Source of the DNA: a virus
Lineage: Duplodnaviria; Heunggongvirae; Uroviricota; Caudoviricetes
Length of the DNA: 49,238 nt
IMG/VR virus record: IMGVR_UViG_2534681703_000016
Reading direction: 5' to 3' (one strand)
The notes under the pieces were generated by a model. It searched no databases, had not been told where the DNA came from, and worked only from the letters and a program-made list of their open reading frames with translations. Below are positions 23,577 through 39,928 of the stretch, in pieces. Each line of letters begins with the position of its first letter. The first letter of the stretch is position 1. A program made the position numbers and the translations under genes.

Positions 23577-23966
23577 TTACAGAAGTGAGGGCTGGTACTG
23601 GCGGTATTTCAGCCGTCGCATCCGGCGAATGGCTTTGTACACCGTATTGAAAGTGACACCATAACGGGTGGTCAGTTCGCTGACGTTGCGACCGTTAAAA
23701 TCATTCCAGATACGCAAATCCCGAATCAGCGAGTCCAGAACCTGACCGCGTGGAATGTAGACCTGGCCGCCGCCCAGATGCTTACAGATAGCCACAACAA
23801 TCTCCAGTGAATGGGCAGGATCAACACCCAGCCGGGACAATTCCCCGCGTAGTAAATCGTTCAGCTCCGCCAGCAGTGCCGGAAAGCGTGACGTATCCTC
23901 TGCGGGATTGTCAAGATGTGCCAGGATGGTGTCATCCTGCAAATCACCAAATAAATCTTCCGTCAT
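23577..23966 (-). CDS. mor: middle operon regulator Mor
   Basis: 129-aa ORF; C-terminal region ...GGGQVYIPRG... parallels the C protein; follows gemA with ATGA overlap as in Mu. Confidence 0.85.
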   Translation of the reverse strand: MTEDLFGDLQDDTILAHLDNPAEDTSRFPALLAELNDLLRGELSRLGVDPAHSLEIVVAICKHLGGGQVYIPRGQVLDSLIRDLRIWNDFNGRNVSELTTRYGVTFNTVYKAIRRMRRLKYRQYQPSLL

Positions 23967-24514
23967 TGTGCCATCCTCCGCGTCTTTCTGGCATGGGCAT
24001 AAGCCGCCGTCATGGCATCATAGCCGCGCAGTTCACGCCCGGACGGACTGACCGGCAATGGAAGCCCGTGACGGGAAAAGGCTTCACGAATACAGCGGAT
24101 GTGCCACTGTTTCAGGGTTTCAAGCACAACCTGCAACGATTCTCCGTGGCACCACGCCAGTGTGGAAACACCCTGTCCGCCGTTGCGTTTCGCTGTCAGG
24201 CGCTGAACATATTTATCCAGCGCCACATCACCGCCATCGGTAATAAAACCGTCTTCTGCCATCTGCTGCCAGACTTTGTATACCTTCTCGCGGGGAGTGG
24301 CATACCCCTTAAAGCGGCGACGTGGATGTTTATTCAGCTTCTTAAAGCCGCGTTCTTTCATGGCATCGAGCACCTGTTCCAGTTGCGTGACCGTCAGCTC
24401 GCGGCAACTGGTTTTGCCCGTTTTCTGCATCAGAAAAGCGCGGTAAGTGTCGTCGTCGAGTTGTAGCTCCCGACGGGCGACATGGATTAATTTAATCAGG
24501 GATGTGCGATTCAT
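23963..24514 (-). CDS. gemA: GemA-like protein (Mu gp16)
   Basis: ORF 23963..24682; start reassigned to ATG at 24514 (MNRTSLIKL...) with GAGGTGAG RBS. Confidence 0.7.
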   Translation of the reverse strand: MNRTSLIKLIHVARRELQLDDDTYRAFLMQKTGKTSCRELTVTQLEQVLDAMKERGFKKLNKHPRRRFKGYATPREKVYKVWQQMAEDGFITDGGDVALDKYVQRLTAKRNGGQGVSTLAWCHGESLQVVLETLKQWHIRCIREAFSRHGLPLPVSPSGRELRGYDAMTAAYAHARKTRRMAQ

Positions 24515-24544
24515 TTGCTCACCTCTCATATTAAGGAATGAGAT

Positions 24545-24961
24545 ATGAAAATTGATTATGACGAGATAGCCAGAATATTTGATGTTTTTCTGGAGGCCGA
24601 CACCGCATTCATTCGACTGGAAGATGTCGGCTGGGATTGTTCTCAGCGGCACAGCGACAGCCATCAGAAGCTGGTTTTCCATCTTCTGTTGCTGGTTGAA
24701 AATGGTTTTATCAGCAACAGATATCTGGAAACAGGCACCGCAAAAAGCATTGGTCTCACCCCAACAAGCCTCGGATATTCATATTCAGGCACCAGTGTCA
24801 GACTTACACAAGATGGTCATGATTTTGCGAAAGCACTACATCAAAAACCCATTCTTGAGCGCATAAAACAGGACCTTGCCGACGCCCCGATGACGCTCGT
24901 AACAGACGTCGGCAAACAGTGGTTAACCTCGTTTCTTAAAAAGAAACTCGGGATTGAATAG
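24545..24961 (+). CDS. hypothetical 138-aa protein on the opposite strand to all surrounding prophage genes (possible DUF2513-like winged helix)
   Basis: ATG at 24545 preceded by AAGGAATGAGAT; minus strand has no ORF of 60 aa or more across 24515-24922; AT-richer than neighbours. Confidence 0.6.
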   Translation: MKIDYDEIARIFDVFLEADTAFIRLEDVGWDCSQRHSDSHQKLVFHLLLLVENGFISNRYLETGTAKSIGLTPTSLGYSYSGTSVRLTQDGHDFAKALHQKPILERIKQDLADAPMTLVTDVGKQWLTSFLKKKLGIE

Positions 24962-25234
24962 TTCCCTGTTCATACGTTGCAGCGCATCAAGGGCGGCGAC
25001 AGCCGCCACTTTATTGTTACCATCAGCAATAGTGCGGAGATTTTCAATAATCCAGTGAGGACTCAGTGACTCAGCAATAATGCCAAACCGGTACGCCATG
25101 ACTTCATCAATAGCTTTTTCATGAGACGACTCATATACAAAACTCACAAAGTCATGCACTTCTTTTTTCGGCAAACCACCGGCAATCAGCAGGGCGGCAA
25201 GCTCTTCTGATTTTGAAAATACACCATTATTCAT
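24923..25234 (-). CDS. hypothetical protein (103 aa)
   Basis: ORF 24923..25249 (GTG); ATG at 25234 preceded by AAGGTGAG; 3' end overlaps the plus-strand gene by 39 bp. Confidence 0.5.
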   Translation of the reverse strand: MNNGVFSKSEELAALLIAGGLPKKEVHDFVSFVYESSHEKAIDEVMAYRFGIIAESLSPHWIIENLRTIADGNNKVAAVAALDALQRMNRELFNPEFLFKKRG

Positions 25235-25235
25235 A

Positions 25236-25931
25236 TCACTCACCTTCACAATTCATGCACGCCGTGTCATCGCCCATATCGCAGTGGTTGCATTTCTGCC
25301 CACCACAATGAGGGCACTCTTTCAGATATTCAGGGTTTTCATTACCGCAGGTCGGGCATTCCTGTTTCACCGTGGTGAATGTCCCCAGCCACGAATACGA
25401 ATTTTCACCGACTGTCTTTTTCCCCGTTATTTCTGAATCAGAACTAATACAGTGTTTTTCAACCCATGCCACACGTGCTGAATTCAGGTGGCATCTGGCC
25501 AATTTGCTTTCGTTTCTGTAATGTTTGCTGTCCCGGTTAAATGGCAATTTCTCATTCAGCCCTGCTGAGATAAAGTCCGCATGTAATTGTTCTAATGCGG
25601 CTTCACTGTCTGCACCGGTTGATTCAAAATAATCGTAAGCATTGGCACATAATCCGGCAGCCCGGGTAAATACATCATCGCCCGTCTCCATTGCCCCATT
25701 CTTTAACCATCGGTTGTAGGCTGTATAAAAACTATAAAGTTGCTTTCTGATACAGGTAGTGGCAGTTCCGCCATTAACTGACGCTGGCGTAACATAGCCA
25801 GCTCTGCATAAAGCAGAACGAAGTATATCCAGAACCTGCCAGGCATCTTCTCCTTCAATCACGCTACAGTTTTTGTACACCAGGACGTCCCGGCCACAAC
25901 TTTTATCAATACCCCAGTCTTCAAATTTCAC
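25236..25931 (-). CDS. hypothetical protein with C-terminal double zinc ribbon
   Basis: ORF 25236..25994; preferred start GTG at 25931 with AGGAGG RBS 6 nt upstream; C-terminus CPTCG...CPHCG...CNHC...CMNC. Confidence 0.6.
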   Translation of the reverse strand: MKFEDWGIDKSCGRDVLVYKNCSVIEGEDAWQVLDILRSALCRAGYVTPASVNGGTATTCIRKQLYSFYTAYNRWLKNGAMETGDDVFTRAAGLCANAYDYFESTGADSEAALEQLHADFISAGLNEKLPFNRDSKHYRNESKLARCHLNSARVAWVEKHCISSDSEITGKKTVGENSYSWLGTFTTVKQECPTCGNENPEYLKECPHCGGQKCNHCDMGDDTACMNCEGE

Positions 25932-26460
25932 AACCAGCCTCCTGCACCACACCCGGTGCTGATGAAAAATCAATGATGAGATAACGCAGTACATGGTCGG
26001 TGATATTCCAGGCGCTGGAACTGCAAATAAACCGCCCCAGCCGGATATCGATATAAGCCATCACAAAACGGGGCATTCCCTGTTTGCACATCTCGTCATC
26101 CACTTCTGCAACGATGTGAACGGACTCACAGGTCAGTACGCCTGTCGCAAACTCTTTTGCCAGTGCGGGGATGGTATTACCTTCCACCCAGGGTAATGAG
26201 CGACGCCAGTTGCACCACACCGCATCATCAACAGCAGGCTGCTCAGTTGCGTTTCGTCTTACCGGCGGCGTCTGACGCGGGCGCGGAACGTCATAAAATC
26301 CGTTGCATTCGGTGAGCACTCCGGCATCAACCGCATCACGCAGGAAATACACCATTGCGGAGGGTGGCATCTGCATTTTTTCAGCCAGAACCCCGCAGGT
26401 CAGGCGTCCGTAAGCCCGTAATAATGTGCTGACACCATTCAGAATTTTTGCATCAACCAT
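25921..26460 (-). CDS. hypothetical 179-aa protein with N-terminal winged-helix-like segment
   Basis: ORF downstream of gam with its own start; no family recognisable by eye. Confidence 0.55.
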   Translation of the reverse strand: MVDAKILNGVSTLLRAYGRLTCGVLAEKMQMPPSAMVYFLRDAVDAGVLTECNGFYDVPRPRQTPPVRRNATEQPAVDDAVWCNWRRSLPWVEGNTIPALAKEFATGVLTCESVHIVAEVDDEMCKQGMPRFVMAYIDIRLGRFICSSSAWNITDHVLRYLIIDFSSAPGVVQEAGCEI

Positions 26461-26558
26461 GTTTTATTCCTCAGTAATCTGTTTCAGGCGCGAGCAATCC
26501 CCTGACGCATCGCGCCATAATTAAAAGAATGTGAATTAATTAAATATTAATGGTGGTA

Positions 26559-27083
26559 TTAAATACCGGCTTCCTGTTCAAACGGAATAATGGAAAAATC
26601 TTCAATTCCCGATTTAACCGTAATTCCGGCAACACCTGCGACGGCTTTTGGTTCCAGTAAAATCGCCTCCTTGTTGATTTCCTGCTTCGTGCGAATAAAG
26701 CGTTGCAGGCCAAGACGCTCCAGCGTTTCCATCACTGCATCCATACCACGAATACTTACTGATGGTGGACGGACCCGCCACGATACATCACCGGTGACAA
26801 GATTCGCCGTCTTCACTTTGCCGCCGTTCGTCAGTTCGTCGCGGTTCGCTTCACACCATCCCTGAACGCCTTTTGAAAGGGTTTCAATATCGGTTTTAAT
26901 CGGTGCAATCCGGGCCGCAAATTTCTCCGTAATTTCCGCGATGGCATCATTCATTTCCGTTTCCAGACGTGATGCTTCGCGCTGTAAATCCCCGATGCGT
27001 TTAATATCGGTAATCACCGCATCGCGGTTTTGTGGCACATAAGCCGCTGCGGCACTCTTGATACGTTTTGCTGGTTTAGCCAT
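26559..27083 (-). CDS. gam: Gam, Ku-like double-strand-end binding host-nuclease inhibitor
   Basis: 174-aa translation MAKPAKRIKSAAAAYVPQNRDAVITDIKRIGDLQREASRLETEMNDAIAE... matches phage Mu Gam as recalled. Confidence 0.93.
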   Translation of the reverse strand: MAKPAKRIKSAAAAYVPQNRDAVITDIKRIGDLQREASRLETEMNDAIAEITEKFAARIAPIKTDIETLSKGVQGWCEANRDELTNGGKVKTANLVTGDVSWRVRPPSVSIRGMDAVMETLERLGLQRFIRTKQEINKEAILLEPKAVAGVAGITVKSGIEDFSIIPFEQEAGI

Positions 27084-28599: not shown

Positions 28600-29538
28600 T
28601 TAATTACGCAGCAGCGTTGAAATATCAACGTCCAGGTCTAATTCACGGAAAGCCTGACGCAGATAATCTTCGTTAACACGCTCACCTTTACCGTGAGCCG
28701 TCATGGCGGCAAGGCGAAGTGAATGATTCAGAATGCGAAGCGCACCTGGTTTCTGCGCAATCTGCTGTAATAACTCCAGTTCATTTTCGCCGTTAATCTG
28801 CCAGGCATCCGCAATAGCTTTTACATCGGCTTTTTTGGTTTTATTAATTGCAGTGCGCTTTGCAATACGGGAAAACAGACGGGCAAATTCAACCGTTCTG
28901 TTACCCCCCGTCATATTTGAATAAACCCGGTGATTTCCCATCAGCACAAGGCCAGTGCGGGTTGATTCCTGTAACAGGCGGAGTTCTTCCAGAACTTCGG
29001 CACCAAGATGATCAGCTTCGTCGATGATAACCAGCCCCTGTGTACCTTCAAGGCGACGTCGCAGGGCGCGGGAGAGCGGCCCTTTACGGCGTGGTGCGTC
29101 ATTCATTCCCAGCTCAAACGCCAGTTCAGTAAGACATTCCAGAACGCTGGCACAGGATGGCGTAATGGTGATCATCCAGACATTGTTATTGGTGCGGCGA
29201 TATTCACGGGCCGCTTCGGTTTTGCCCACACCAGGATTGCCACATACAACAGCAATACTTTCAGTCAGGCTGGCAAAACGCATACTTGTCCAGATTTGTT
29301 TTACCGTCTGCGTTTCCACAAAGCGGGGCGGTTCAGGTAGTTCTGCCACTGCATGATATTTTTCCAGCCAGCGTTGCAGCATTTGTGAAACACGCTCGTT
29401 ATCCCCGTTGTACTTATCATTGATAAAACTACTGATAGTTCCGGTAGAAAGTCCGCTCTCAAGAGCAATTTGTTTAAAGGTGGTTTCTTCATTTTCTACA
29501 AGCGTGCGCAGTCCTGCGCGAATATCGGAAATATTCAT
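28600..29538 (-). CDS. B: DNA transposition protein B (AAA+ ATPase)
   Basis: 312-aa ORF with Walker A GNPGVGKT; translation matches MuB as recalled. Confidence 0.92.
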   Translation of the reverse strand: MNISDIRAGLRTLVENEETTFKQIALESGLSTGTISSFINDKYNGDNERVSQMLQRWLEKYHAVAELPEPPRFVETQTVKQIWTSMRFASLTESIAVVCGNPGVGKTEAAREYRRTNNNVWMITITPSCASVLECLTELAFELGMNDAPRRKGPLSRALRRRLEGTQGLVIIDEADHLGAEVLEELRLLQESTRTGLVLMGNHRVYSNMTGGNRTVEFARLFSRIAKRTAINKTKKADVKAIADAWQINGENELELLQQIAQKPGALRILNHSLRLAAMTAHGKGERVNEDYLRQAFRELDLDVDISTLLRN

Positions 29539-29576: not shown

Positions 29577-31565
29577 TTAAATGGCTTTTTTACGTCTGTT
29601 CTGTTCCAGAATATCCAGCGAATGATTCAGATATTCATCACGCTCAGTTTCGTATTCATCATCACGCTCCTGATTCTTCACCCGTTCCGTATTACCGGAA
29701 GGCCGGAAAATGCCGACAATTCGTGATTCTGGTGCTTCAGGTTCGGCTATCTGCGGCAGCAGCTCTGCCACTTCCAGTGCATCCATTTGTTTCTGTGCCT
29801 TAATCGCTGCTTTCGTCGCAGATTTCAGTTGTTTCTGGCGGCGGCGATATTCACGGCCTGCCGCAGCATCATTAAACGCAACAGGTGCCAGACATTCCGC
29901 TTCACAGATAAACCGACCGTCCAGGGTGTAACAATAAACCGTGCTGTGTAGCTGCTGCGGATCAAACCTGACCACAACTTTTTTCACGCCGGCATTCATT
30001 AATGCCATGTTGTAATAAACGTTTTTCGCGCCTTTAAGGGAGCCGCCAACTTTAAGCGTAAACTCGCCTTTGCGTGAAACGTTCACCGCCTCGGCAGGCA
30101 GTAACAGCATCCGTTTTTGTTCTTCGGTTGGCTTACGCACAATCGTTCTGGCGTATTCACGCTCGAAAACATCATCAAACGAGAGTTTGCCCCCGCACAT
30201 TTCTGTTTCACGGCCTGTTCTGGCATTGAACATCGCCACACCTTCGGCAAGGTTTTTCAGAAACAGCTCTGCATCAACAGCGCGGTTGCCATAGTTATCA
30301 GGTTTTGCCTGCGGATTTGGCCCCGTATATGCGCCAGCCAGTGCCGGATGCTTATCAACGTATTCCTCAAGCCCACCAACACCGAAAGCACGTTCAACAG
30401 GTTTTGCCTGGCCCCAGCCTTTACCGGCAACAACGCTTGTCCAGTGCATTTTCGCACCCATCAGTAAAAACAATCCCTTTGGATCGTCTTCTTTCACCTT
30501 AAAGCGGTAGCGATTGGGCGCGCCTCCCGTCAGCCATTTATTCGCAGCACCACGGGTGTTATCAATGGTGATGTGAAAATCCTCCGGGATACCGTAGCGA
30601 GTCACAACATCCATGAACGAGAGGCGAATTGAATCAATGTTCTCGCTCACATCGCAGCGCCAGCCCAGAATTTTTCGGGTTTTCACATCCTGCCAGAACC
30701 ATGTTTTCGGGCGGATCACATCACCGTTAAACCAGCGTACAAAGACGTTATGCAGATAACCGTCGCCGTTGATCCACTGCATGGCGTCCAGGTGTTCCAC
30801 AGTTCGCTGCTGTGCCGGTATCAGATGCATCAGTGCATGTTCACCTTCACGACAGGCAACAACCATTGCCTCGTCCAGTTGCTGAATCCGGCGAAAGGCC
30901 GTGGCACGGGAGGGAATACTCCAGCCATGCTCGCGGGCTGCCAGTTCCAGACGCTCATAACATTTGCGGAAGGCGGGTTTTTCCGGTCGCAGATAATCTG
31001 CAATCAGAAACTGCCAGGCATCCTCGTCAAATTCACTTTTGTGAACATTGCGACGGGATGCACCACGTCCATCAACAAGTGCAGCCGCCCAGTCAGGCTT
31101 CGCAAACTTCTGTACCTGGTAATACTTGTCCCGCAAAGTGGATGCGCTGACCTGGTAATGCCCTGCAACGGTCGCAAAAGCCGTTTTCGTTGAAATCCCC
31201 TGGTTCAGCATTTCGTCTGCAGCCTGAACCGCAGGCAACCATTTTTCAGCAAGTCTGCGCTGGGAATCGCTGGCTTTATCCCATTTGCTCCACAGCACCT
31301 CACGATCATAATCATGGGCTTCCAGCGTGGGGCGGGCGATTTCAAAACGGCCCAGGCTTGTTTCAATTCTCCCTTGTTGCAACAGAATTTCAGCACGTAA
31401 TGCGACAGGGAATGATTTGATATTGAATTCAAATGATACACCTTTAGTCCCTGCAACCTGTCTGAACTCCCAGCCTTCTCTTTGTGCCTTACGTGTAATG
31501 TTAGTGGCTTGCTTTGGTAAACCTGCCAAACCGAGCAACTCTTTTGCTGTATACCATTCTTTCAT
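29577..31565 (-). CDS. A: DDE transposase A (MuA family) with D108-type N-terminal operator-binding domain
   Basis: 662-aa ORF; from about residue 65 onward matches MuA as recalled (…[20 protein letters not shown]… catalytic core), N-terminal ~65 aa differ. Confidence 0.95.
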
Positions 31566-31572
31566 AGCGCAC

Positions 31573-31794
31573 CTAGTATCGAGACGGCCAAATATCTTGC
31601 GGTGTCATTCCCAGTGCATCTGCAATGATTTTCTCCGCTTTCGGATATCTCTTATCCAAAGCATTTTTTAATGTTGAAGACGAAAGATGATTAGATCTTC
31701 CCAATTCAGCTAGTGACATATTGCGTTTTCGTAGCTCTGCAACGATGTCAGCTCTGTGCCAATCTTGGCGGTTAGTTCTTTTATTCATATGCAT
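31573..31794 (-). CDS. ner: Ner DNA-binding regulator
   Basis: 73-aa ORF with ...[14 protein letters not shown]...IWPSRY, Ner family; directly upstream of A. Confidence 0.85.
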
Positions 31795-31979
31795 TTCATG
31801 TAATCCTTTCAGATTCCCCCGCGAGCTACGCTATAAAGTAGCTCACGGCATATCGTGCAATGTAGTGTGGAATCACTTTCAAATCAATAGTGATTTGAAA
31901 GGATTTGCCATGATTTCATATAACAGCATGATTTTTATATGAATTTATTTTGTCTCTATTGAAATCACTAGGATTTTAA
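31795..31979. promoter_or_regulatory. divergent early promoter/operator region between ner and c
   Basis: AT-rich 185-bp gap with palindromic TTTCAAATCA...TGATTTGAAA repeats between divergent c and ner. Confidence 0.6.
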
Positions 31980-32504
31980 ATGATGTCTTTTGAAATCAAA
32001 GAATGGTTTAATGCGAAAGAGCTGGAAGGGATGCCTGGTGTACCAAAGTTGGCGACTAACATTACCAGGAAAGCTGTGGCGGAAGATTGGGTAAAACGTC
32101 AGCGTCACGGTGGGAAAGGTGTCGCTTATGAGTATCACATCAACAGTCTGCCAGAAGAAACACGCAGGGCCATTAAAGGAGCCTCACTTTCTGATAAACC
32201 AGTGCATACATCAATCGCCCATACAGTTGATGAGAGGCTAATTTATGCAATGAGCTTCTTAACACCAGATGAGCAGGCCGCAGCTGTGGAGATCATTCGT
32301 GTGGCAGGGATTAAAGGACTTATGCCTACAATTGTCAGTAAAGATAAGGCATTAGAGGCATTAGGGATTACTGTGGAGCAACAGAAAACCCTGCAAACTC
32401 TTCAGGCATTACCACCGGAAAAAGTGAGAGAGATTTTGTCTCAGTATGAAGGCAAAGAACATAATTTCCCTGTAAGAGAAAACGATGTAAAGAAAGCTGT
32501 ATAA
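31980..32504 (+). CDS. c: prophage repressor c (D108-type)
   Basis: 174-aa ORF divergent from ner; N-terminal domain homologous to the N-terminus of the A protein in this window. Confidence 0.8.
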   Translation: MMSFEIKEWFNAKELEGMPGVPKLATNITRKAVAEDWVKRQRHGGKGVAYEYHINSLPEETRRAIKGASLSDKPVHTSIAHTVDERLIYAMSFLTPDEQAAAVEIIRVAGIKGLMPTIVSKDKALEALGITVEQQKTLQTLQALPPEKVREILSQYEGKEHNFPVRENDVKKAV

Positions 32505-32663: not shown

Positions 32664-32843
32664 GTAATTGCTTTTCGTGTCTTTAATGAATCAAAAGCTG
32701 TTTCCAACAATCTTTCGCGTTTCAAGATGTAACGGCTAAAATCTGTCCTACAGGCTTGCAAGCCCCACTAAATCTAATCCCGCCAAATCCCGAATAATCC
32801 AATGTCCTCCCGGTTTTTTTCGTACTTCAAGTGAATCAATACA
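32664..32843 (-). repeat. Mu-family left end (attL with transposase binding sites)
   Basis: reverse complement of 32799-32843 reads TGTATTGATTCACTTGAAGTACGAAAAAAACCGGGAGGACATTGG, the Mu left-end terminus; divergence from Mu further in fits D108-type. Confidence 0.85.
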
Positions 32844-32856
32844 GTGCTGATTTATG

Positions 32857-33159
32857 TCAGACGGGATTTTGCTTATCAATTATTGAGAACAGAAATTTTC
32901 CTGAATCATCAATACTATACTTAGCAAGTAAAGGTGTTTTCTCATTTATCTGCTTGAGTGCAGGATCAAGGAAAGATCGTTTCAACTCTGCCAAGTTCTT
33001 CTGCTGGGATTCCGGTAAGACGAAACGGTCATTTAACCAAGCATGAGTAGTAACCCATAAGCCTGAAGATTTGAATTGAGCAAGACTTTCATAAAGGCGG
33101 ATCGTCCGGGGATTTCGAAGACTGCCACAATCGCGGAGCGAGTAGGTGGTGAACTGGTT
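32857..33159 (-). pseudogene. C-terminal remnant (about 100 codons) of a second RepE-family replication initiator gene, truncated by IS1
   Basis: minus-strand translation ...FTTYSLRDCGSLRNPRTIRLYESLAQFKSSGLWVTTHAWLNDRFVLPESQQKN... parallels the C-terminus of the intact RepE-like protein at 40742-41464. Confidence 0.7.
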
Positions 33160-33174
33160 GGTAATGACTCCAAC

Positions 33175-33678
33175 TTACTGATAGTGTTTTATGTTCAGAT
33201 AATGCCCGATGACTTTGTCATGCAGCGCCACCGATTTTGAGAACGACAGTGACTTCCTGCCCAGCCTTGCCAGATGCTGCCTCAGATTCTGGTTATGCCG
33301 CTCAATTCGCTGCGTATATCGCTTGCTGATAACGTGCAGTTCTCCCTTCAGGCGGGATTCATAAAGCGGCCAGCCATCCGTCATCCATACCACGACCTCA
33401 AAGGCCGACAGCAGGCCCGGAAGACGCTCCAGCGTGGCCAGAGTACGCTCACCAAAGACGCGTGCCACCACCGTCCTGCACATCCTGCCATAGGCGTAAA
33501 ATAACCAGCGCTGACGTGATTTAGCCCCGACGTAGCCCCACTGTTCGTCCATTTCCGCGCAGACAATGACGTCACTGCCCGGTTGTATGCGTGAGGTTAC
33601 CGACTGCGGTCTGAGTTTTTTAAGTGACGTAAAATCGTGTTGAGGCCAACGCCCATAATGCGGGCGGTTGCCCGGCAT
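33175..33678 (-). CDS. insB: IS1 InsB frame (expressed as InsAB' fusion by -1 frameshift)
   Basis: 167-aa ORF ...[31 protein letters not shown]... matches IS1 InsB with a few substitutions. Confidence 0.88.
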
Positions 33679-33872
33679 CCAACGCCATTCATGGCCATAT
33701 CAATGATTTTCTGGTGCGTACCGGGCTGAGAGGCGGTGTAAGTGAACTGTAGCTGCCATGTTTTACGGCAGTGAGAGCAGAGATAGCGCTGATGTCCGGC
33801 AGTACTTTTACCGTTACGCACCACGCCTTCAGTAGCTGAGCAGGAGGGACAACTGATGGAGATGGAAGCCAC
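33597..33872 (-). CDS. insA: IS1 InsA
   Basis: 91-aa translation [42 protein letters not shown]... matches IS1 InsA as recalled. Confidence 0.92.
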
Positions 33873-33927
33873 TGGAGCACCTCAAAGACACCATCGTACA
33901 CTAAATCAGTAAGTTGGCACCATTATC

Positions 33928-35873
33928 CGGCAGGCGATCTGGATTATCGTCACGCTGTTAAATATGTCGCGGTAGGGATACCCGTTACCGGATACCCCCC
34001 GCACAGATCCCGGCGTGCGCGATTTACGCACCGGGCTCCTGCCTCGGGTGTCTGGCGGTGAACCGCTCCACAGGCCATGGATGAAGAACCCGAACCCTTG
34101 GTAGCCATGCGGCTGCCAGTTTGTTTGCTTTCGTCCAGGTCGTATCATCCTTCTGGCTCCTGCGCCTGAGCGCCCGGCGCCAGAGGTTTGTTACGTGTGT
34201 CCTGAACTTCTGCATGGTGGGGAAGTTGCCCGGTACCGAGTGATAGTTCAGGTATCCCTGAACCACTCTCCTGAGCCATTTTCCCTGTTCGGGGATTGAG
34301 TAATGCCAGCGCCTTCGCAGACCGTCTTTGATGGCTTTCAGAGTTGCCGTCATCCGATCCCGGCGGGTCTTTCGTATCAGCATGAACCTGCCGTTGCGAT
34401 CTTTCCCGCTGATGTGCGTGAACCCGAGGAAGTTGAACGTTTCTGGTTTGCCTTTTCCCCTGATGGCACGGTTTTCGGCAGCGAAGCGGCCGAACTCCAT
34501 CAGACGGGTTTTCTCCGGGTGAACCGTGAGTCCGAACTCCCTCAGTCTGCGCTGCATGGCTATACGGAAGCGCCGGGCATCGTATCGTTTGTCGAACCCG
34601 ATGACGATGTCATCGGCGTATCTGACCATTACCACATTGCCTGTGGCATAGCGACGTCGCCACTGATGCGCCCACAGATCGAAGACGTAGTGGAGGTATA
34701 TGTTTGCCAGCAGCGGTGAGATGACCGCACCCTGTGGGGTGCCTTCCTCCGTTGCTCGCCATTGACCCTCCTCCAACGTCCCGGCTGTGAGCCACTTACG
34801 TATGAGCCTGATTACGCTCCGGTCGCCGATCCGATGCTCTGTGAACCTGATCAGCCATTCGTGGCTCACCCTGTCGAAGAACTGACTGATGTCGGCATCC
34901 AGTACCCAGTTTACGTTAGTGCGTACCAGCCCTGTGGCCAGTGCGTCCAGTGCATCGTGCTGGCTTCGCCCGGGTCTGAACCCGTATGAGAACCCCATAA
35001 AGTCGTTTTCATAGACTGCGTTCAGGATTTTCACCAGCGCATACTGGACGATCTTGTCCTCCAGCGAGGCGATGCCGAGCGGGCGTTGTTTTCCATCCGC
35101 TTTTGGGATGTAGTGACGCCTGCCGGGCTGCGCCCTGTAGCTGCCCTAATGTAGCCTCCGGTGCAGATCTGTTATGTTGTTCTTCATGTTTCCGGCGTAG
35201 TCCATCCACCTGATGCCATCCACTCCGGCGGCCGCTTTCCTGCTCAGGGAGAGGAATGCGGCTTCCAGTGCTTCGACTGTCAGCAGGTGGAACAATGCTG
35301 TAAACCGTTCTTTCTTCCGCTGCTTCGCAGCTTCCCGCACGCGTGACAGCCTCTGTGACATGCTTTCCCGGCTCTGTGTCCGGCGCATGTGTGGCTGTTC
35401 CGCGTTCCCCTTGGCCCCGCTCCTTCGCTCCACTGACTCCGCTCCTTTCGGGTTGTTCGCCTGCTTCGCCGCTACTATGAGCGAGTCCGACTTCTCCTCT
35501 CCGTACATCACCGGCTATGACTCCTCGTCTTCCCGGTGCGGGCCGTCTCCGACACTGGCAGATGGTCAGAGGGGAGATCTCCCGGTTCCCGCGTAGAGAT
35601 CGTATTGACATGCCAGGGTCTCAGACCCCGCCGGGTCCATGTGGCACTCGCAGTATCGCACCCTATGATGTTGCCTTCCGTTAACAGTACAACGTCGGCA
35701 CCCGGTAATTTAATATACATTTCGTGGCTCAATGGCTGGCCTGTCAACACCCCTGTCAACGCTTCGCCCCATACCTCGCGGTATGCAACGCATGACTCGG
35801 GGACCTTGTGGATTGCTGGTCCTTCAATGGTCGGGGACTTTCACCCCTTGATCTCTACCGGTCTCCCGGTGAG
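33928..35873 (-). mobile_element. group II intron (boundaries approximate)
   Basis: RT/maturase ORF flanked by about 0.1 kb of 3' and about 0.4 kb of 5' non-coding structured sequence; abuts IS1 at the 3' side and the umuDC SOS box at the 5' side. Confidence 0.5.
34024..35511 (-). pseudogene. group II intron reverse transcriptase/maturase interrupted by a single in-frame amber codon
   Basis: ORFs 35146..35511 and 34024..35034 are in the same frame, separated by TAG at 35146-35148; read-through gives continuous RT motifs (AAGVDGI..., RPLGI, YADD, FLGF, maturase X domain). Confidence 0.75.
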
Positions 35874-35893
35874 CACTGTATGTATAACCAGTA
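35874..35893 (+). promoter_or_regulatory. LexA (SOS) box upstream of umuD
   Basis: CACTGTATGTATAACCAGTA, 16/20 match to TACTGTATATATATACAGTA with CTG-N10-CAG core, 24 bp upstream of the umuD ATG. Confidence 0.6.
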
Positions 35894-35916
35894 AAATTAG
35901 AGTGTCAGGAGGAAAG

Positions 35917-36348
35917 ATGAAACTACAACTTTTCAGCACCGGGAAAGAACTCCCGCCACAGGCCCATCCATTGTTTGCCGATCTGGCCAGCTGCGGTTTT
36001 CCCAGCCCTGCTGCTGACTATGTCGAGTCCGATCTGGATCTCCATGATTACTGCATACGGCATCCGAGCGCGACGTACTACCTGCGTGCCAGCGGAGACA
36101 GCATGGCCGACGGCAGTCTGTACAATGGCGATCTGCTGGTTGTGGACAGTGCTGAAAAGCCGCGGCACGGCGATATCGTTGTCGCCAGCATGCAGGGGGA
36201 GTTTACGGTGAAACGGCTTCTGCTGACGCCGCGACTGACGCTGCAGCCCATGAATGCCTCCTGGTCGCCGATTTATCCTGATCCCGACGAGCTGGATATC
36301 TTTGGCGTCGTCACGCATATCATCCACCGCCCGAGGGAGATGTACTGA
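35917..36348 (+). CDS. umuD: UmuD-like SOS mutagenesis protein (LexA-type S24 peptidase)
   Basis: ORF 35536..36348; ATG at 35917 after GGAGGAAAG; translation ...[12 protein letters not shown]...[18 protein letters not shown]...GEFTVKRL... closely parallels E. coli UmuD. Confidence 0.9.
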
Positions 36349-37619
36349 TGTTTGCCCTGGCCGATGTGAACAGCTTCTATGCCAGCTGTGAACGTGTTTT
36401 CCGCCCGGATTTGAAAGGAAAGCCGATAGTCGTCCTGAGCAACAACGACGGGAATGTAATCGCTCGCAGTGCCGAGGCGAAGCCCTGGATCAAAATGGAA
36501 ACTCCGTGGTTTCAGATAAAAAACGAAAGATACCCGGAAAAAATATATGCGTTTTCAAGTAACTATGAACTTTATGCCTCGATGTTGGCGCGCGTGATGA
36601 ACAGCCTGGAGGAACTGGCCCCCAGAGTGGAACAGTATTCAATTGATGAGATGTTCCTCGATTTGACCGGCGTGGAGCACTGTATGGAGCTTGAGGACTT
36701 CGGCCGGCAGCTGCGTCAGCACGTGTATGACTGTACCCACCTGACCATTGGCGTGGGCGCCGGACCAACGAAGACCCTCGCAAAATCAGCCCAGTGGGCC
36801 TCAAAAGAGTGGAAACAGTTTCGTGGCGTACTTGCTCTGACCAGGGGAAATCCGCAGAGAACGCGGAAACTGCTTTCACTGCAGCCGGTTGAAGAAATCT
36901 GGGGGGTGGGTAACCGTATTGCACGCAAGCTGAATGTACTGGGCATTAAGACCGCGCTCGATCTCGCCCTGACGAACCCGGCCTTCATCCGCAAAAATTT
37001 TTCTGTGGTCCTTGAGCGAACGGTACGGGAACTGAACGGGGAAAGCTGCCTTTCGCTTGAGGAAGCCCCTCCGACGAAACAGCAAATTGTCTGCAGCCGC
37101 AGTTTTGGCGTGAAGATCACGGAGTACGAGTCACTCCGTCAGGCTATCTGTCAGCACGCAGAGCGGGCCTCTGAAAAACTGCGTAAAGAGCACCAGTATT
37201 GCCGGCATATTTCCGTTTTCATCAAAACGTCTCCGTTCGCCATTAAAGAGCCTTACTACGGCAACGTGGCTACGGAAAAACTTCTTACACCCACTCAGGA
37301 CACCAGGGACATCATTGCAGCCGCTACAACGGCTCTGGAGCGTATCTGGAGGGATGGGCACCGGTATGCCAAAGCCGGAGTTATGCTGAATGACTTCACC
37401 GGCTCCGGCGTTTCGCAGCTGCAGCTGTTCGACGAACGCCCGCCACGCCCTTACAGTGCTGAGCTGATGAAGGTTCTGGACGGGATCAACAACTCAGGGC
37501 TGGGTAAAGTATGGTTTGCGGGGCGGGGTATTGCCCCGGAATGGCAGATGAAACGGGAGATGCTTTCTCCTGCTTATACGACACGATGGTCAGATATTCC
37601 TTCAGCGAAACTGGCGTAA
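36348..37619 (+). CDS. umuC: UmuC-like Y-family DNA polymerase V catalytic subunit
   Basis: 423-aa [44 protein letters not shown]... parallels E. coli UmuC; ATGA-type coupling to umuD. Confidence 0.92.
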
Positions 37620-37624
37620 AACTT

Positions 37625-37702
37625 TGGCGATTTCACCTTGAAATTCTCAGCCTAAACTGCCTAATTACAATAAGTTAGATGTGAAATCGCCATGGCGAAA
37701 TT
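37625..37702. promoter_or_regulatory. parS-like centromere downstream of parB
   Basis: P1-type heptamer ATTTCAC at 37630-37636 and inverted GTGAAAT plus hexamers TCGCCA/TGGCGA at 37681-37698. Confidence 0.5.
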
Positions 37703-38678
37703 ATTGACTCAAATTTCTGTCAAGGACCTCGTTGATAGCCTTGTCCAGTTCATCCTGAATCACTTTTGACATACGGCTAAACTCATAAGTCAGCGTACGC
37801 CCTTTCACACGCTTACGCGCGAACTTGTCCTTTTCTTCAAAAGACCAGAGTGGGGAAACCACTGACTTTTCCTTGGGAGATGGATCTATCAATGCCTGAG
37901 ATGCCTGAGAAATCAGCTTCAGTATACTGGCTTTCTGTTCGTCTTCTGGTCGCTCGCCTTCACTCAAAATTGCATCGAGCTGAGCTGATACAGACTGAAT
38001 GAGTTCTTCAGGCGTTAATCCCTTTTCACTGAGTTTTTCATTAACTTCTAAAAGAAGTTTATAGTCACTAAACGATAGCTCCGACTGAACCGGGAACAGA
38101 GAAATCAAGTCTTGCGGTACGGCCGCCGCCTGCAGCGCCCTGGTAACTTTAGCTTGAGATAACCCCTCCAGTTCAGCAATTTCCTTTTGATTAAATCCGG
38201 ACTCTTTAAGAGCGATCAATCTCAGGCCAATCTCCCGAAGATTATGTTCTTTAGCTGTCTGGATATCTTTAGCCAGTTGGCGAGCTTCATCAGCTGATAA
38301 ATGCTCTTCGGTAACCATTACATCAAGGCCTGTACGGACAAAAATTGCTGAGGCTCGCCGTCTTGAACCATCCAGTATCTCAATCCTTTCACTTTGCTTA
38401 ATACCAATACAGGGAAAGAACTGCTGAAACTTAATCGTCTGGATAATGGATTTCAGGGATTCCCTGGTCAGTGCAAGTTGATCTCTTCCGTTGTTTTCCT
38501 GGTTTACGAAGGTCTTACTTTCAACTTCAGATGCAGGCACCCGAACAAACCTGAACGTTACCTTCCTGCCGGTTTTTAAGGTAAATACCTGGCTTCTACC
38601 GGTGTCCGTCATTTCCGCAATTGACGCCTGGGTATTTAACTGTCTGCCGATGGTTTTTCTTTTCTCATTCGACATCAC
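37701..38678 (-). CDS. parB: ParB partition protein (P1 ParB / F SopB family)
   Basis: 325-aa ORF with ...IEILDGSRRRASAI..., ...EGLSQAKVTRALQAA... HTH and C-terminal dimerisation region; follows parA with ATGA overlap. Confidence 0.85.
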   Translation of the reverse strand: MMSNEKRKTIGRQLNTQASIAEMTDTGRSQVFTLKTGRKVTFRFVRVPASEVESKTFVNQENNGRDQLALTRESLKSIIQTIKFQQFFPCIGIKQSERIEILDGSRRRASAIFVRTGLDVMVTEEHLSADEARQLAKDIQTAKEHNLREIGLRLIALKESGFNQKEIAELEGLSQAKVTRALQAAAVPQDLISLFPVQSELSFSDYKLLLEVNEKLSEKGLTPEELIQSVSAQLDAILSEGERPEDEQKASILKLISQASQALIDPSPKEKSVVSPLWSFEEKDKFARKRVKGRTLTYEFSRMSKVIQDELDKAINEVLDRNLSQ

Positions 38679-39880
38679 ATACCTCCGTTAGTACGAATGA
38701 ACTCGATGCGATCAAAGACTGCCTTCGCAAAGTCTTCCGCTGCTGATTTTGCGCTTTTTAGTGCCTCTGTACTTCCATCATAGGTTGCTGGATTTGCTGA
38801 AATAACTGTGTCAAAAGTCTCCCCACAACGTTCGAAACCATCCAGTCTTGGCAGAACCATGTCTAGCATATCGGCACCGAAAACCTCTTTGGCCTGACTA
38901 TGGCAAATTTTGTGATCAGACTTGTTCAGGATCTTGGACATGAAGCCGACATTACCGATGAGATTGCAGGTGTGCCCATCCATTTCGATGGAATCTATGA
39001 GGGCAGGGAGGCTGGCCACAAACTTCAGGGAAGAATGAAAATCAACCGTCGCCGGTGGAAGAGGGGTCAACATCAGGTCTGCCGCCCCAATGCAGTTTTT
39101 CAGGAACGCATCAAGGTGAGGACCACTATCAAGGAAAATAAAGTCGTAGTCATGCTGGAGCTTGTCGATAATGTTCTCTTTAAGCACCGCATGAATATTT
39201 TTCCCTGGCAGATGTTCTTCACACAATCCCTTCCAGCCTTCAGCAAGGAATGCATCGTCAATGGAAGCGGGGATTACATCAACACCAGGGATAATAGACG
39301 GTACTATAAAATCGGAAAGTAATTCTTCACGAGACACGTTCTGGAGCATGGCCTGAGCAGCCGTATTTTCAACCAAGCCCACTGAATTCTCATGGCTCAG
39401 GAACATTGTCAGAGATGCCTGCGGATCGAAATCGATGGCCAGAATACGCAGGTCTTCGAACAGAAGCTGAGGATGAGCTCGAAAAGCATGTGATAATGAA
39501 GCGGTAGAAACTGTCTTGGAACCACCACCTTTAAGATTACATACAAAAATCGTAAAGGCTTTATCGAAGCGATCCCTGTACTTCGGTACTTTACGATGGT
39601 TATACAGATCGATGACATTCTGAATCGTCATCGCGTATTTCATCGTATTACCAGAAGGTTTCTTTTTAAAAATGTAGCCACCGGCTTCCATTTCGGACAC
39701 AGCATACTCAACACTGCCTTTACTGAGCTTAGGCAGCTTATACAGAGCGGCTTTGCTGTATTCCTGATAGAACTCGGTAAGCTTCAATTCCTCTTTTTGC
39801 TGTCGGATACTTTCGCTCAAAGATGTCAGAAGCTTACCTGCACGTGTAGCGACTTTCCGTAACTGCTCAATATTGTCCAT
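38675..39880 (-). CDS. parA: ParA partition ATPase (type Ia, with N-terminal regulatory domain)
   Basis: 401-aa ORF with deviant Walker A KGGGSKT and long N-terminal extension typical of P1 ParA / F SopA. Confidence 0.88.
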   Translation of the reverse strand: MDNIEQLRKVATRAGKLLTSLSESIRQQKEELKLTEFYQEYSKAALYKLPKLSKGSVEYAVSEMEAGGYIFKKKPSGNTMKYAMTIQNVIDLYNHRKVPKYRDRFDKAFTIFVCNLKGGGSKTVSTASLSHAFRAHPQLLFEDLRILAIDFDPQASLTMFLSHENSVGLVENTAAQAMLQNVSREELLSDFIVPSIIPGVDVIPASIDDAFLAEGWKGLCEEHLPGKNIHAVLKENIIDKLQHDYDFIFLDSGPHLDAFLKNCIGAADLMLTPLPPATVDFHSSLKFVASLPALIDSIEMDGHTCNLIGNVGFMSKILNKSDHKICHSQAKEVFGADMLDMVLPRLDGFERCGETFDTVISANPATYDGSTEALKSAKSAAEDFAKAVFDRIEFIRTNGGM

Positions 39881-39889
39881 TTATCACCT

Positions 39890-39928
39890 CATGACGTTTT
39901 TTGTCATTTTGAACAAAAAGTGTCATGT
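39890..39928. promoter_or_regulatory. palindromic candidate parA operator
   Basis: CATGACGTTTTTTGTCATTTTGAACAAAAAGTGTCATG imperfect palindrome 10 bp upstream of the parA start. Confidence 0.45.

What the first reader, a model, noticed from the sequence alone, without database searches (positions are those of the whole stretch)
24515..26460. Opposite-strand gene and unassigned gene block inside the Mu-type early region (between gam and gemA)
In phage Mu every early gene is transcribed in one direction from Pe. Here a 138-aa ORF (24545-24961) sits on the opposite strand, 30 bp from the gemA start, with its own RBS and lower GC than its surroundings; the minus strand is ORF-free over those 400 bp, so it is unlikely to be spurious. 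It is convergent with a 103-aa gene (39-bp overlap). The adjoining minus-strand genes encode a 231-aa protein with a C-terminal double CxxC zinc ribbon (GTG start, AGGAGG RBS) and a 179-aa protein with a winged-helix-like N-terminus. None can be matched by eye to Mu gp12-gp15. This is the best candidate here for an undescribed accessory module (moron; possible anti-defence, host-takeover or superinfection-exclusion function), but function is pure inference.
Basis: partly seen in the sequence, partly recalled or inferred. Interest (0 to 1): 0.62.

Follow-up and report, generated by a model that had tools for sequence, protein, structure and literature searches.

The report
Opposite-strand DUF2513 gene in Mu prophage
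The backwards-facing gene is real and conserved. Phage Mu and its relatives normally carry a backwards gene at this exact spot, so this is an ordinary swap of accessory genes of unknown function, not a new kind of insertion.

Summary
The sequence features are as described. A 138-aa plus-strand ORF (24545-24961) lies 30 bp from the gemA start and overlaps a 103-aa minus-strand gene tail-to-tail by 39 bp.

RefSeq phage Mu annotates an opposite-strand gene, Mup15, in the same slot, also overlapping its neighbour gp14 tail-to-tail.
- The 179-aa protein is Mu gp11 (92.5% identical).
- The last 56 aa of the 231-aa protein are Mu gp13.
- The 103-aa protein matches SfMu gp14 (84%).

Only two patches are foreign to Mu: 24515-24984 and 25408-25937.

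The plus-strand ORF is a real gene of the catalogued but uncharacterised DUF2513/phrog_585 family. It encodes a small acidic protein with a winged-helix fold.

The new observation is that DUF2513 and the 103-aa family form a tight tail-to-tail pair. This pair also occurs outside the early region, for example inside a baseplate gene cluster, which suggests a mobile two-gene accessory cassette. Among close Mu relatives it alternates with the gp14/Mup15 pair just upstream of gemA.

Function is inferred only. It is probably an accessory gene expressed in the lysogen and silenced by early transcription. No promoter, defence-family match or expression data support this.

The parts
23963..24514 (-). 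gemA (Mu gp16). Its start lies 30 nt from the plus-strand ORF, facing away from it.
   Evidence: Pfam GemA E=1.4e-31. 93-96% identical to Mu, SfMu and YpM_5 GemA.
24515..24544 (.). 30-bp spacer holding both ribosome-binding sites. It contains the inverted repeat TCTCAT-N8-ATGAGA (24524-24543).
   Evidence: Sequence and inverted-repeat search. The spacer is identical in prophages whose DUF2513 protein is only 62% identical, but different in the Salmonella versions.
24545..24961 (+). Opposite-strand gene for a 138-aa acidic winged-helix protein of the DUF2513 / phrog_585 family.
24923..25234 (-). 103-aa early-strand gene (phrog_1988, SfMu gp14 homologue). It is the tail-to-tail partner of the DUF2513 gene, with a 39-bp overlap.
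   Evidence: Partner family found next to DUF2513 in 33 of 40 loci. AF2 model unusable, pLDDT 52.
24992..25007 (+). GC-rich hairpin GGCGGC-GACA-GCCGCC followed by ACTTTATTGT, 31 nt past the plus-strand ORF stop. It is a possible terminator, but it coincides with the conserved AAVAAL codons of the partner gene.
   Evidence: number of sites not above shuffles. Fold z=-3.1; the hairpin is kept in L007 and L008 but not in L044 or L025.
24515..24984 (.). Foreign patch A, with no DNA similarity to Mu, SfMu or YpM_5. It stands where Mu has gp14 plus Mup15 and the region upstream of gemA.
   Evidence: blastn breakpoints. The same patch occurs in E. coli SE11 and 22KM0354 with different neighbours.
25236..25931 (-). 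231-aa chimeric protein. The first ~175 aa are foreign and include a ~106-aa domain of a 129-aa prophage protein family (phrog_2510). They are fused in frame to a Mu gp13 zinc ribbon (25236-25407).
   Evidence: phrog_6418 full length E=3.5e-166 and phrog_5584 (gp13) E=1.1e-38. Homologues. PGAP CDS WP_244588664.1.
25408..25937 (.). Foreign patch B, standing where Mu has gp12.
   Evidence: blastn breakpoints. Present in 2 of 5426 E. coli genomes, there without the DUF2513 gene.
25921..26460 (-). Mu gp11 homologue (179 aa).
   Evidence: 92.5% identical to Mup11; Pfam Gp11_C E=2.9e-39; phrog_1949.
26559..27083 (-). gam (Mu gp10), marking the upstream edge of the block.
   Evidence: 100% identical to Mu Gam; Pfam Phage_Mu_Gam.

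Best explanation
This is the variable tail of the early ('semi-essential') operon of a Mu-type prophage lying on the minus strand.

Shown:
- gp11, the gp13 zinc ribbon, the SfMu-gp14-like 103-aa gene, gemA and gam are ordinary backbone genes.
- Two patches have been exchanged by recombination. One replaces gp12 and fuses about 175 foreign residues onto gp13. The other replaces Mu's gp14/Mup15 pair with the 3' end of the 103-aa gene plus an opposite-strand gene for a DUF2513/phrog_585 protein.
- The slot immediately upstream of gemA usually holds an opposite-strand gene in this phage group.
- The DUF2513 gene and the 103-aa family form a tight tail-to-tail pair. The same pair also occurs at other genome positions, so it behaves as a mobile two-gene accessory cassette.

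Inferred, not shown:
- The DUF2513 gene is read against the early operon. It can therefore accumulate mainly when the early promoter is repressed, in the lysogen. After induction, oncoming early transcription would suppress it, while that same transcript expresses the 103-aa partner.
- The protein is a small acidic winged-helix protein with a hydrophobic 'recognition' helix. It more likely binds another protein, or acts as an atypical regulator, than works as a classical repressor.
- Its most likely role is a lysogen-expressed accessory function such as exclusion, defence or regulation.
For: Mosaic structure and identities.
Mu's own opposite-strand Mup15 in the same slot, overlapping gp14.
Survey of 46 loci with GemA at least 80% identical: 10 carry DUF2513 plus the 103-aa family, 19 carry the Mup15 family plus Mup14 (always together), 7 carry the 103-aa family alone, 1 carries it with Mup14 only, and 9 carry none.
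Same position and orientation in E. coli (62% identity) and Salmonella (48%) prophages, with 30-39-bp overlaps.
Partner family next to DUF2513 and tail-to-tail in 33 of 40 IMG/VR loci. In L044/45/49/50 the pair sits between Mu-gp45-like spike and gp46-like sheath-initiator genes. In L047 the flanking genes face the other way, yet the pair stays tail-to-tail.
The two proteins diverge in parallel: 62/49, 51/37, 46/32 and 42/30% identity.
Real coding gene.
Fold and charge.
More distant relatives sit in classic accessory-gene positions of other phages, between the lysis and terminase genes and near int/xis. Others sit next to a type I CBASS operon or a NucS-like defence candidate.
Against: - No sigma-70-type promoter was found for the plus-strand ORF. 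With a 30-bp spacer, any promoter must lie inside gemA.
- The downstream hairpin is no more than chance would give and coincides with conserved codons.
- There are no transcript data.
- The 103-aa family occurs without DUF2513 in SfMu, YpM_5 and 7 of 46 loci. DUF2513 relatives occur without it in L026-29, L048, L052, L054 and the marine genomes. The pairing may therefore reflect physical interlocking of overlapping 3' ends more than joint function.
- Many IMG/VR loci are near-duplicates, leaving roughly 10 distinct pair types.
- No match to any PADLOC or NCBIfam model.
Confidence: 0.6

Rival explanations
1. The DUF2513 protein is a DNA-binding regulator specific to Mu. It would sit back-to-back with gemA and control the gemA-mor genes, or its own promoter, by binding the inverted repeat in the 30-bp spacer.
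For: It faces away from gemA at 30-70 bp in all Mu-type contexts seen. It has a winged-helix fold. TCTCAT-N8-ATGAGA spans both translation starts, and the spacer stays identical while the ORF diverges to 62%.
Against: The same gene pair occurs far from any gemA, in a baseplate cluster and other settings. All 24 family members examined are acidic (pI 4.8-6.7), and the putative recognition helix is hydrophobic with a single lysine. The Salmonella versions have a different spacer without this repeat. A short repeat covering two ribosome-binding sites can arise from the two similar sites themselves.
Confidence: 0.13
2. The pair is a prophage-borne exclusion or defence module with built-in self-immunity. 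DUF2513 would act in the lysogen against incoming phages. The 103-aa protein, made with the early genes, would neutralise it when the prophage itself is induced. Mu's gp14/Mup15 would be an alternative allele with the same logic.
For: The tail-to-tail pair moves as a unit. Two unrelated pairs alternate in one slot. The orientation opposes the lytic operon. Homologues at 40-44% identity lie directly upstream of a Cap15 plus CD-NTase CBASS operon and near a NucS-like PDC-S02 candidate.
Against: There is no PADLOC match for either protein. The weak PDC-M42B hit appears in only 2 of 13 partners at E=0.009. Neither protein has an enzymatic or membrane domain. Each partner occurs alone in many genomes. 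The defence-island neighbourhood rests on one marine locus type plus one genome.
Confidence: 0.17
3. One reading: a one-off, undescribed accessory module of four unassigned genes inserted into an otherwise strictly one-directional Mu early region.
For: Two patches have no DNA similarity to Mu. The block has lower GC. The cassette is rare in E. coli.
Against: Mu has Mup15 in the same slot. gp11, gp13 and SfMu gp14 are matched. The two patches occur separately elsewhere. All four proteins fall in existing PHROG families.
Confidence: 0.05
4. The plus-strand ORF is a chance open frame lying antisense to non-coding early-operon sequence.
For: No promoter was found. The Pfam score is below the family cut-off.
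Against: There are 450 cluster representatives at E<=1e-3 with conserved length. Third-position substitution bias and many synonymous changes point to selection on the protein. The structure model is confident, pLDDT 92. The minus strand has no alternative ORF.
Confidence: 0.02

Closest known systems
Phage Mu gp14 / Mup15 pair (RefSeq NC_000929; also in D108, SfMu and Yersinia vB_YpM phages)
   Same: Same slot, the last position before gemA. Same geometry: a ~100-aa early-strand gene overlapping tail-to-tail with a small opposite-strand gene (62-bp overlap in Mu, 39 bp here). Both pairs always travel together in the survey.
   Different: No detectable sequence relationship. BLASTP found nothing, and hhalign gave probability 0.4-5.7% over 7-16 columns. 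Mup15 has 88 aa against 138 aa here. Mu has about 70 bp between Mup15 and gemA, against 30 bp here. The reality of Mup15 is itself disputed: the GenBank record AF083977 now annotates a same-strand Mu_54 and a 'semi-early promoter' there.
DUF2513 (Pfam PF10711) / PHROG 585, an uncharacterised family
   Same: Full-length match to phrog_585 (E=5.5e-31). NCBI's pipeline names the 98-99%-identical E. coli proteins 'DUF2513 domain-containing'. Homologues at ~54% identity carry PF10711 hits.
   Different: The window protein itself scores 15.8 bits against a Pfam cut-off of 29.6, so it belongs to a divergent enterobacterial branch. No member of the family has a known function: only one paper in the library mentions the name, in an unrelated context.
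Morons of temperate phages (independently transcribed accessory genes such as lambda bor/lom or HK97 gp15; from general knowledge)
   Same: Patchy distribution, a different composition from the neighbouring gemA gene, an orientation independent of the surrounding operon, and insertion between conserved genes at several different genome positions.
   Different: The defining promoter and terminator were not demonstrated. Here the unit appears to be two interlocked genes, not one.
PadR / MarR / HxlR-type winged-helix regulators and viral winged-helix proteins (STIV F93, TubR)
   Different: Sequence identity is 11-21% with no family-level match. The protein is acidic, and the helix in the recognition position is hydrophobic. 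DNA binding was not tested.

Membership tests
Muvirus early (semi-essential) region | Order A-B-...-gam-gp11-...-gp13-...-gemA-mor on one strand, with high identity to the Mu proteins | tested here: met
   Gam 100%, gp11 92.5%, gp13 part 91-95% and GemA 93-96% identical, in Mu order. Ner and c repressor lie at 31573-32504.
Muvirus early (semi-essential) region | Homologues of Mu gp12, gp14 and Mup15 between gp11 and gemA | tested here: not met
   No tblastn or blastn match to Mup12, Mup14 or Mup15. No BLASTP or hhalign similarity.
DUF2513 (PF10711) / phrog_585 | Score at or above Pfam's gathering cut-off | tested here: not met
   15.8 bits against a cut-off of 29.6, E=0.018. Several homologues at ~54% identity do carry PF10711.
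DUF2513 (PF10711) / phrog_585 | Full-length profile match to the PHROG family | tested here: met
   phrog_585 E=5.5e-31, residues 1-137 on profile positions 1-127 of 128.
Moron (independently expressed prophage accessory gene) | Own promoter upstream | tested here: inconclusive
   The consensus scan found none on the plus strand near 24545, and inspection by eye found only weak -10-like hexamers. The scan covers sigma-70 consensus sites only.
Moron (independently expressed prophage accessory gene) | Own terminator downstream | tested here: inconclusive
   The hairpin at 24992-25007 has a weak T tail, the number of sites is not above shuffles, and the hairpin overlaps conserved codons.
Moron (independently expressed prophage accessory gene) | Patchy presence among otherwise similar phages, and occurrence at different genome positions | tested here: met
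   5 of 75 E. coli genomes with a Mu-type gemA carry it. Other positions are documented.
Winged-helix transcription factors (MarR/PadR type) | Winged-helix fold | tested here: met
Winged-helix transcription factors (MarR/PadR type) | Sequence-specific DNA binding through the recognition helix | not testable with these tools
   Composition argues against it: pI 4.8-6.7, and helix 38-52 reads DSHQKLVFHLLLLVE. A binding assay is needed.
Known or candidate anti-phage defence systems (PADLOC-DB 2.0) | Significant match of either protein to a system component | tested here: not met
   No hit for the DUF2513 protein or its marine homologue. The 103-aa family shows only PDC-M42B at E=0.009, in 2 of 13 members.

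The most novel reading that the evidence does not exclude
Mu-type phages keep an antisense-coupled two-gene switch in the slot just upstream of gemA, and it comes in at least two unrelated versions (gp14/Mup15 and 103-aa/DUF2513). The opposite-strand protein would be made in the lysogen and provide exclusion, defence or defence regulation. The early-strand partner, together with oncoming early transcription, would switch it off on induction. The 103-aa/DUF2513 version is mobile and also lands inside late gene clusters of other phages.
Probability: 0.2. Interest if true: 0.6.

Novelty: new member of a known kind. Interest (0 to 1): 0.32.

Why it matters
Taken at face value, this is routine mosaic variation in the least understood part of the Mu genome. 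All four proteins already sit in catalogued families of unknown function.

What could matter is the pattern behind it. Two unrelated tail-to-tail gene pairs alternate at one fixed position next to gemA, and one of them travels as a unit to other genome positions. This gives a concrete, testable handle on genes in the Mu semi-essential region (gp11-gp15) that, to my knowledge, have had no assigned function since the genome was sequenced. It also bears on whether Mup15 is a real gene, a point on which the RefSeq and GenBank records disagree.

Tried and rejected
- Homology between the window pair and Mu gp14/Mup15. BLASTP and hhalign were negative. A shared 'L-x-x-L-V-x-x-G-x-I' motif aligned over only 16 columns at 5.7% probability, so I rejected it as evidence of common descent.
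- Defence or anti-defence assignment. PADLOC and NCBIfam were negative.
- Sequence search of solved structures. Nothing turned up for the DUF2513 profile, the 231-aa protein or the 103-aa profile.
- Structure of the 103-aa protein. The model had pLDDT 52 from a shallow alignment and was unusable, so I ran no fold search on it.
- Promoter search for the plus-strand ORF. No consensus site in the window. Scans of two other contexts were uninformative.
- Rfam. No RNA family matched in or near the block.
- Literature. 'DUF2513' gave one irrelevant paper and 'PF10711' none. PMID 9454718, cited for Mu's semi-early promoter, is not held. The SfMu paper does not discuss these genes.
- Deciding Mup15 against Mu_54 by substitution pattern. 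The result was ambiguous: 25/25/40 by codon position, and the antisense frame also stays open.
Full report
**Setting.** The window carries a Mu-type prophage on the minus strand.
- The genes are A (29577-31565), B (28600-29538), gam (26559-27083, 100% identical to Mu Gam), gemA (23963-24514), mor (23577-23966), C and lysis genes.
- Ner and the c repressor lie at 31573-32504.
- The finding covers the stretch between gam and gemA.

**Checking the observation.** The coordinates are right.
- The plus-strand ORF runs 24545-24961 (138 aa). An AAGGA lies about 7 nt before the ATG, and exactly 30 nt separate this ATG from the gemA ATG.
- It overlaps the 103-aa minus-strand gene (24923-25234) stop-to-stop by 39 bp.
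- On the minus strand under it there is only a 42-aa ORF and the upstream run-on of the gemA frame.
- The 231-aa gene starts at a GTG preceded by AGGAGG, the same start that NCBI's pipeline uses in E. coli JCKP02.
- The lower GC is real but not specific to the ORF. The ORF is 45.6%, the 103-aa gene 43.3% and the 231-aa gene 46.3%, against 54.7% for gemA. The rest of the early region is 47-50%.

**The ORF is a gene.**
- A protein search found 29 clusters at 30-99% identity, all 134-146 aa (apart from two shorter, likely partial, entries of 111 and 116 aa).
- A profile search of 1.84 billion representatives found 450 hits at E<=1e-3, nearly all stand-alone proteins of 130-145 aa.
- Against a 62%-identical copy, differences fall 43/23/73 on codon positions 1/2/3, and 40 of the 90 changed codons are synonymous.
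- It matches phrog_585 over its full length (E=5.5e-31).
- NCBI names the E. coli copies 'DUF2513 domain-containing protein'.
- The window protein itself is below Pfam's cut-off (15.8 against 29.6 bits).

**What the neighbours are.** Comparison with Mu, SfMu and Yersinia phage vB_YpM_5 shows a mosaic.
- 24400-24514 (start of gemA) is 98-99% identical to all three.
- 24985-25407 is 94% identical to SfMu and YpM_5. It covers most of the 103-aa gene, which is SfMu gp14 and is absent from Mu, plus gp13.
- 25938-26600 is 91-95% identical. It covers gp11, the spacer and the end of gam.
- The 179-aa protein is Mu gp11 (92.5%; Pfam Gp11_C E=2.9e-39).
- In Mu, gp13 is a separate 60-aa gene. Here its start is lost and it is fused in frame to about 175 foreign residues that stand where gp12 is in Mu.
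- That foreign part contains a ~106-aa domain of a 129-aa prophage protein family (61-69% identity; phrog_2510), which is sometimes fused to DUF551.
- The fusion is not unique. It matches phrog_6418 over its full length (E=3.5e-166), has an exact cluster of 138 member sequences, and occurs in two complete E. coli genomes.
- Only two patches have no counterpart in Mu: 24515-24984 and 25408-25937.
- The two patches are independent. E. coli 22KM0354 has patch A with ordinary gp11-gp12-gp13. JCKP02 has patch B with no opposite-strand gene before gemA.

**The premise about Mu is wrong.**
- RefSeq NC_000929 annotates Mup15 (88 aa) on the opposite strand between gp14 and gemA, overlapping gp14 tail-to-tail by 62 bp. 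SfMu and YpM_5 have the same arrangement.
- The current GenBank record AF083977 instead annotates a same-strand 55-aa Mu_54 and a 'semi-early promoter' there. The status of Mup15 is therefore disputed, and I could not settle it from substitution patterns.
- I surveyed 46 IMG/VR loci whose GemA is at least 80% identical. Ten have DUF2513 plus the 103-aa family. Nineteen have a Mup15-family ORF, including 54%-identical and more remote 80-119-aa versions, and every one of these sits next to a Mup14 homologue. Seven have the 103-aa family alone, one has it with Mup14 only, and nine have none of these.
- An opposite-strand gene directly upstream of gemA is therefore the usual state in this phage group. 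It comes in at least two unrelated versions.

**The pair.** The 103-aa family turned out to be the regular tail-to-tail neighbour of DUF2513.
- A profile of the family finds it immediately downstream and convergent in 33 of 40 IMG/VR loci with a strong full-length DUF2513 match. These represent roughly ten distinct sequence types. Overlaps are 39, 30 or 15 nt, or the genes are 0-4 nt apart.
- The same arrangement holds in E. coli and Salmonella prophages whose DUF2513 is 62% and 48% identical, and in Citrobacter, Pantoea and Kluyvera genomes.
- The pairing is not confined to the Mu early region. In L044/45/49/50 the pair sits between homologues of the Mu gp45 spike and gp46 sheath initiator, inside a baseplate cluster.
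- In L047 the flanking genes run the other way and the 103-aa gene is the odd one out, yet the two remain tail-to-tail.
- Identities of the two proteins fall together: 62/49, 51/37, 46/32 and 42/30%.
- Caveats: each occurs without the other in some genomes. In this window the recombination joint lies inside the 103-aa gene, so only its last ~20 codons belong to the swapped patch. Overlapping 3' ends alone would tend to keep the two together.

**What the protein looks like.**
- The AlphaFold model is confident: pLDDT 92, pTM 0.83.
- All 24 family members examined are acidic (pI 4.8-6.7). The helix in the recognition position reads DSHQKLVFHLLLLVE. The most conserved motif, RLTxxGHDFAxAL, follows the wing.
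- This fits a protein-binding or atypical regulatory winged helix better than a classical repressor, but that is inference.
- The model of the 103-aa protein is all-helical and unreliable (pLDDT 52).
- Neither protein matches PADLOC or NCBIfam models.

**Context clues to function.**
- More distant relatives (25-37% identity) in other temperate phages lie between the lysis and terminase genes, and next to xis/int.
- Homologues at 40% identity in three marine contigs lie 147 bp upstream of, and co-oriented with, a Cap15 effector plus CD-NTase, i.e. a type I CBASS.
- In Alcanivorax a NucS-like PDC-S02 candidate lies two genes away.
- These neighbourhoods are suggestive of a defence-related or regulatory accessory role, but they are few.

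**Expression logic (inferred).**
- No sigma-70 consensus promoter precedes the ORF. With a 30-bp spacer, any promoter must lie within gemA.
- The spacer holds TCTCAT-N8-ATGAGA across both translation starts. It is identical in prophages whose DUF2513 has diverged to 62%, but the Salmonella versions have a different 70-bp spacer. That spacer carries a hairpin plus a T-run on the early strand.
- A GC hairpin 31 nt after the stop could terminate the plus-strand transcript, but it coincides with the conserved AAVAAL codons of the partner gene.
- The gene faces the strong early promoter. The simplest expectation is expression in the lysogen and suppression by convergent early transcription after induction, when the partner gene is expressed.

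**Verdict.**
The interpretation rests on a mistaken premise and overstates how much of the block is unassigned.
- The region is ordinary mosaic variation in the Mu semi-essential region, built from catalogued families of unknown function.
- The conserved tail-to-tail pair, and its alternation with gp14/Mup15, is a modest new observation worth an experiment.

Noticed in passing
window 34024-35841 (-): A group II intron. Rfam group-II-D1D4-6 matches at 35616-35841 (186.6 bits, E=8.8e-55). A reverse-transcriptase ORF lies at 34024-35034, and a 200-aa ORF just upstream in another frame suggests the intron protein gene may be split.
   Followed up: partly
window 32700-39900: The prophage's c-repressor end is followed by an IS1 transposase (33175-33678), the group II intron, and then umuD/umuC-like and ParB genes. 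These last genes are 100% identical to many Klebsiella and E. coli plasmids (4318 plasmid records match). The Mu-type prophage therefore appears to sit in, or next to, plasmid backbone DNA.
   Followed up: partly
L001 (Mu NC_000929 7896-8162) and L004 (AF083977 7960-8217): The two public Mu records disagree. RefSeq has opposite-strand Mup15. GenBank has same-strand Mu_54 plus a 'semi-early promoter'. In the survey, Mup15-family ORFs, including remote 80-119-aa versions, always accompany a Mup14 homologue, which favours Mup15 being real. Codon statistics were ambiguous.
   Followed up: partly
L008/L010 4930-5000 (Salmonella Mu-type prophages): Between the DUF2513 start and gemA there is a hairpin, GGCGGTG-N6-CACCGCC, followed by a T-run on the early strand. 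It looks like a terminator placed just before gemA. The window has no equivalent.
   Followed up: no
L141-L143 (marine metagenome contigs), e.g. L141 2899-5106: A 143-aa DUF2513 homologue lies directly upstream of, and co-oriented with, a Cap15-type two-transmembrane effector and a CD-NTase cyclase (type I CBASS). SymE-type toxin, antitoxin and DUF3644 genes are nearby.
   Followed up: partly
window 25408-25931 (-): The foreign part of the 231-aa protein contains a domain shared with a common 129-aa protein of E. coli and Salmonella prophages (one cluster seen on 213 contigs). In some proteins this domain is fused to DUF551.
   Followed up: no
L053 1731-2137: In one IMG/VR contig the DUF2513 gene matches in two overlapping pieces in different frames. 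This suggests a frameshifted, possibly decaying, copy.
   Followed up: no
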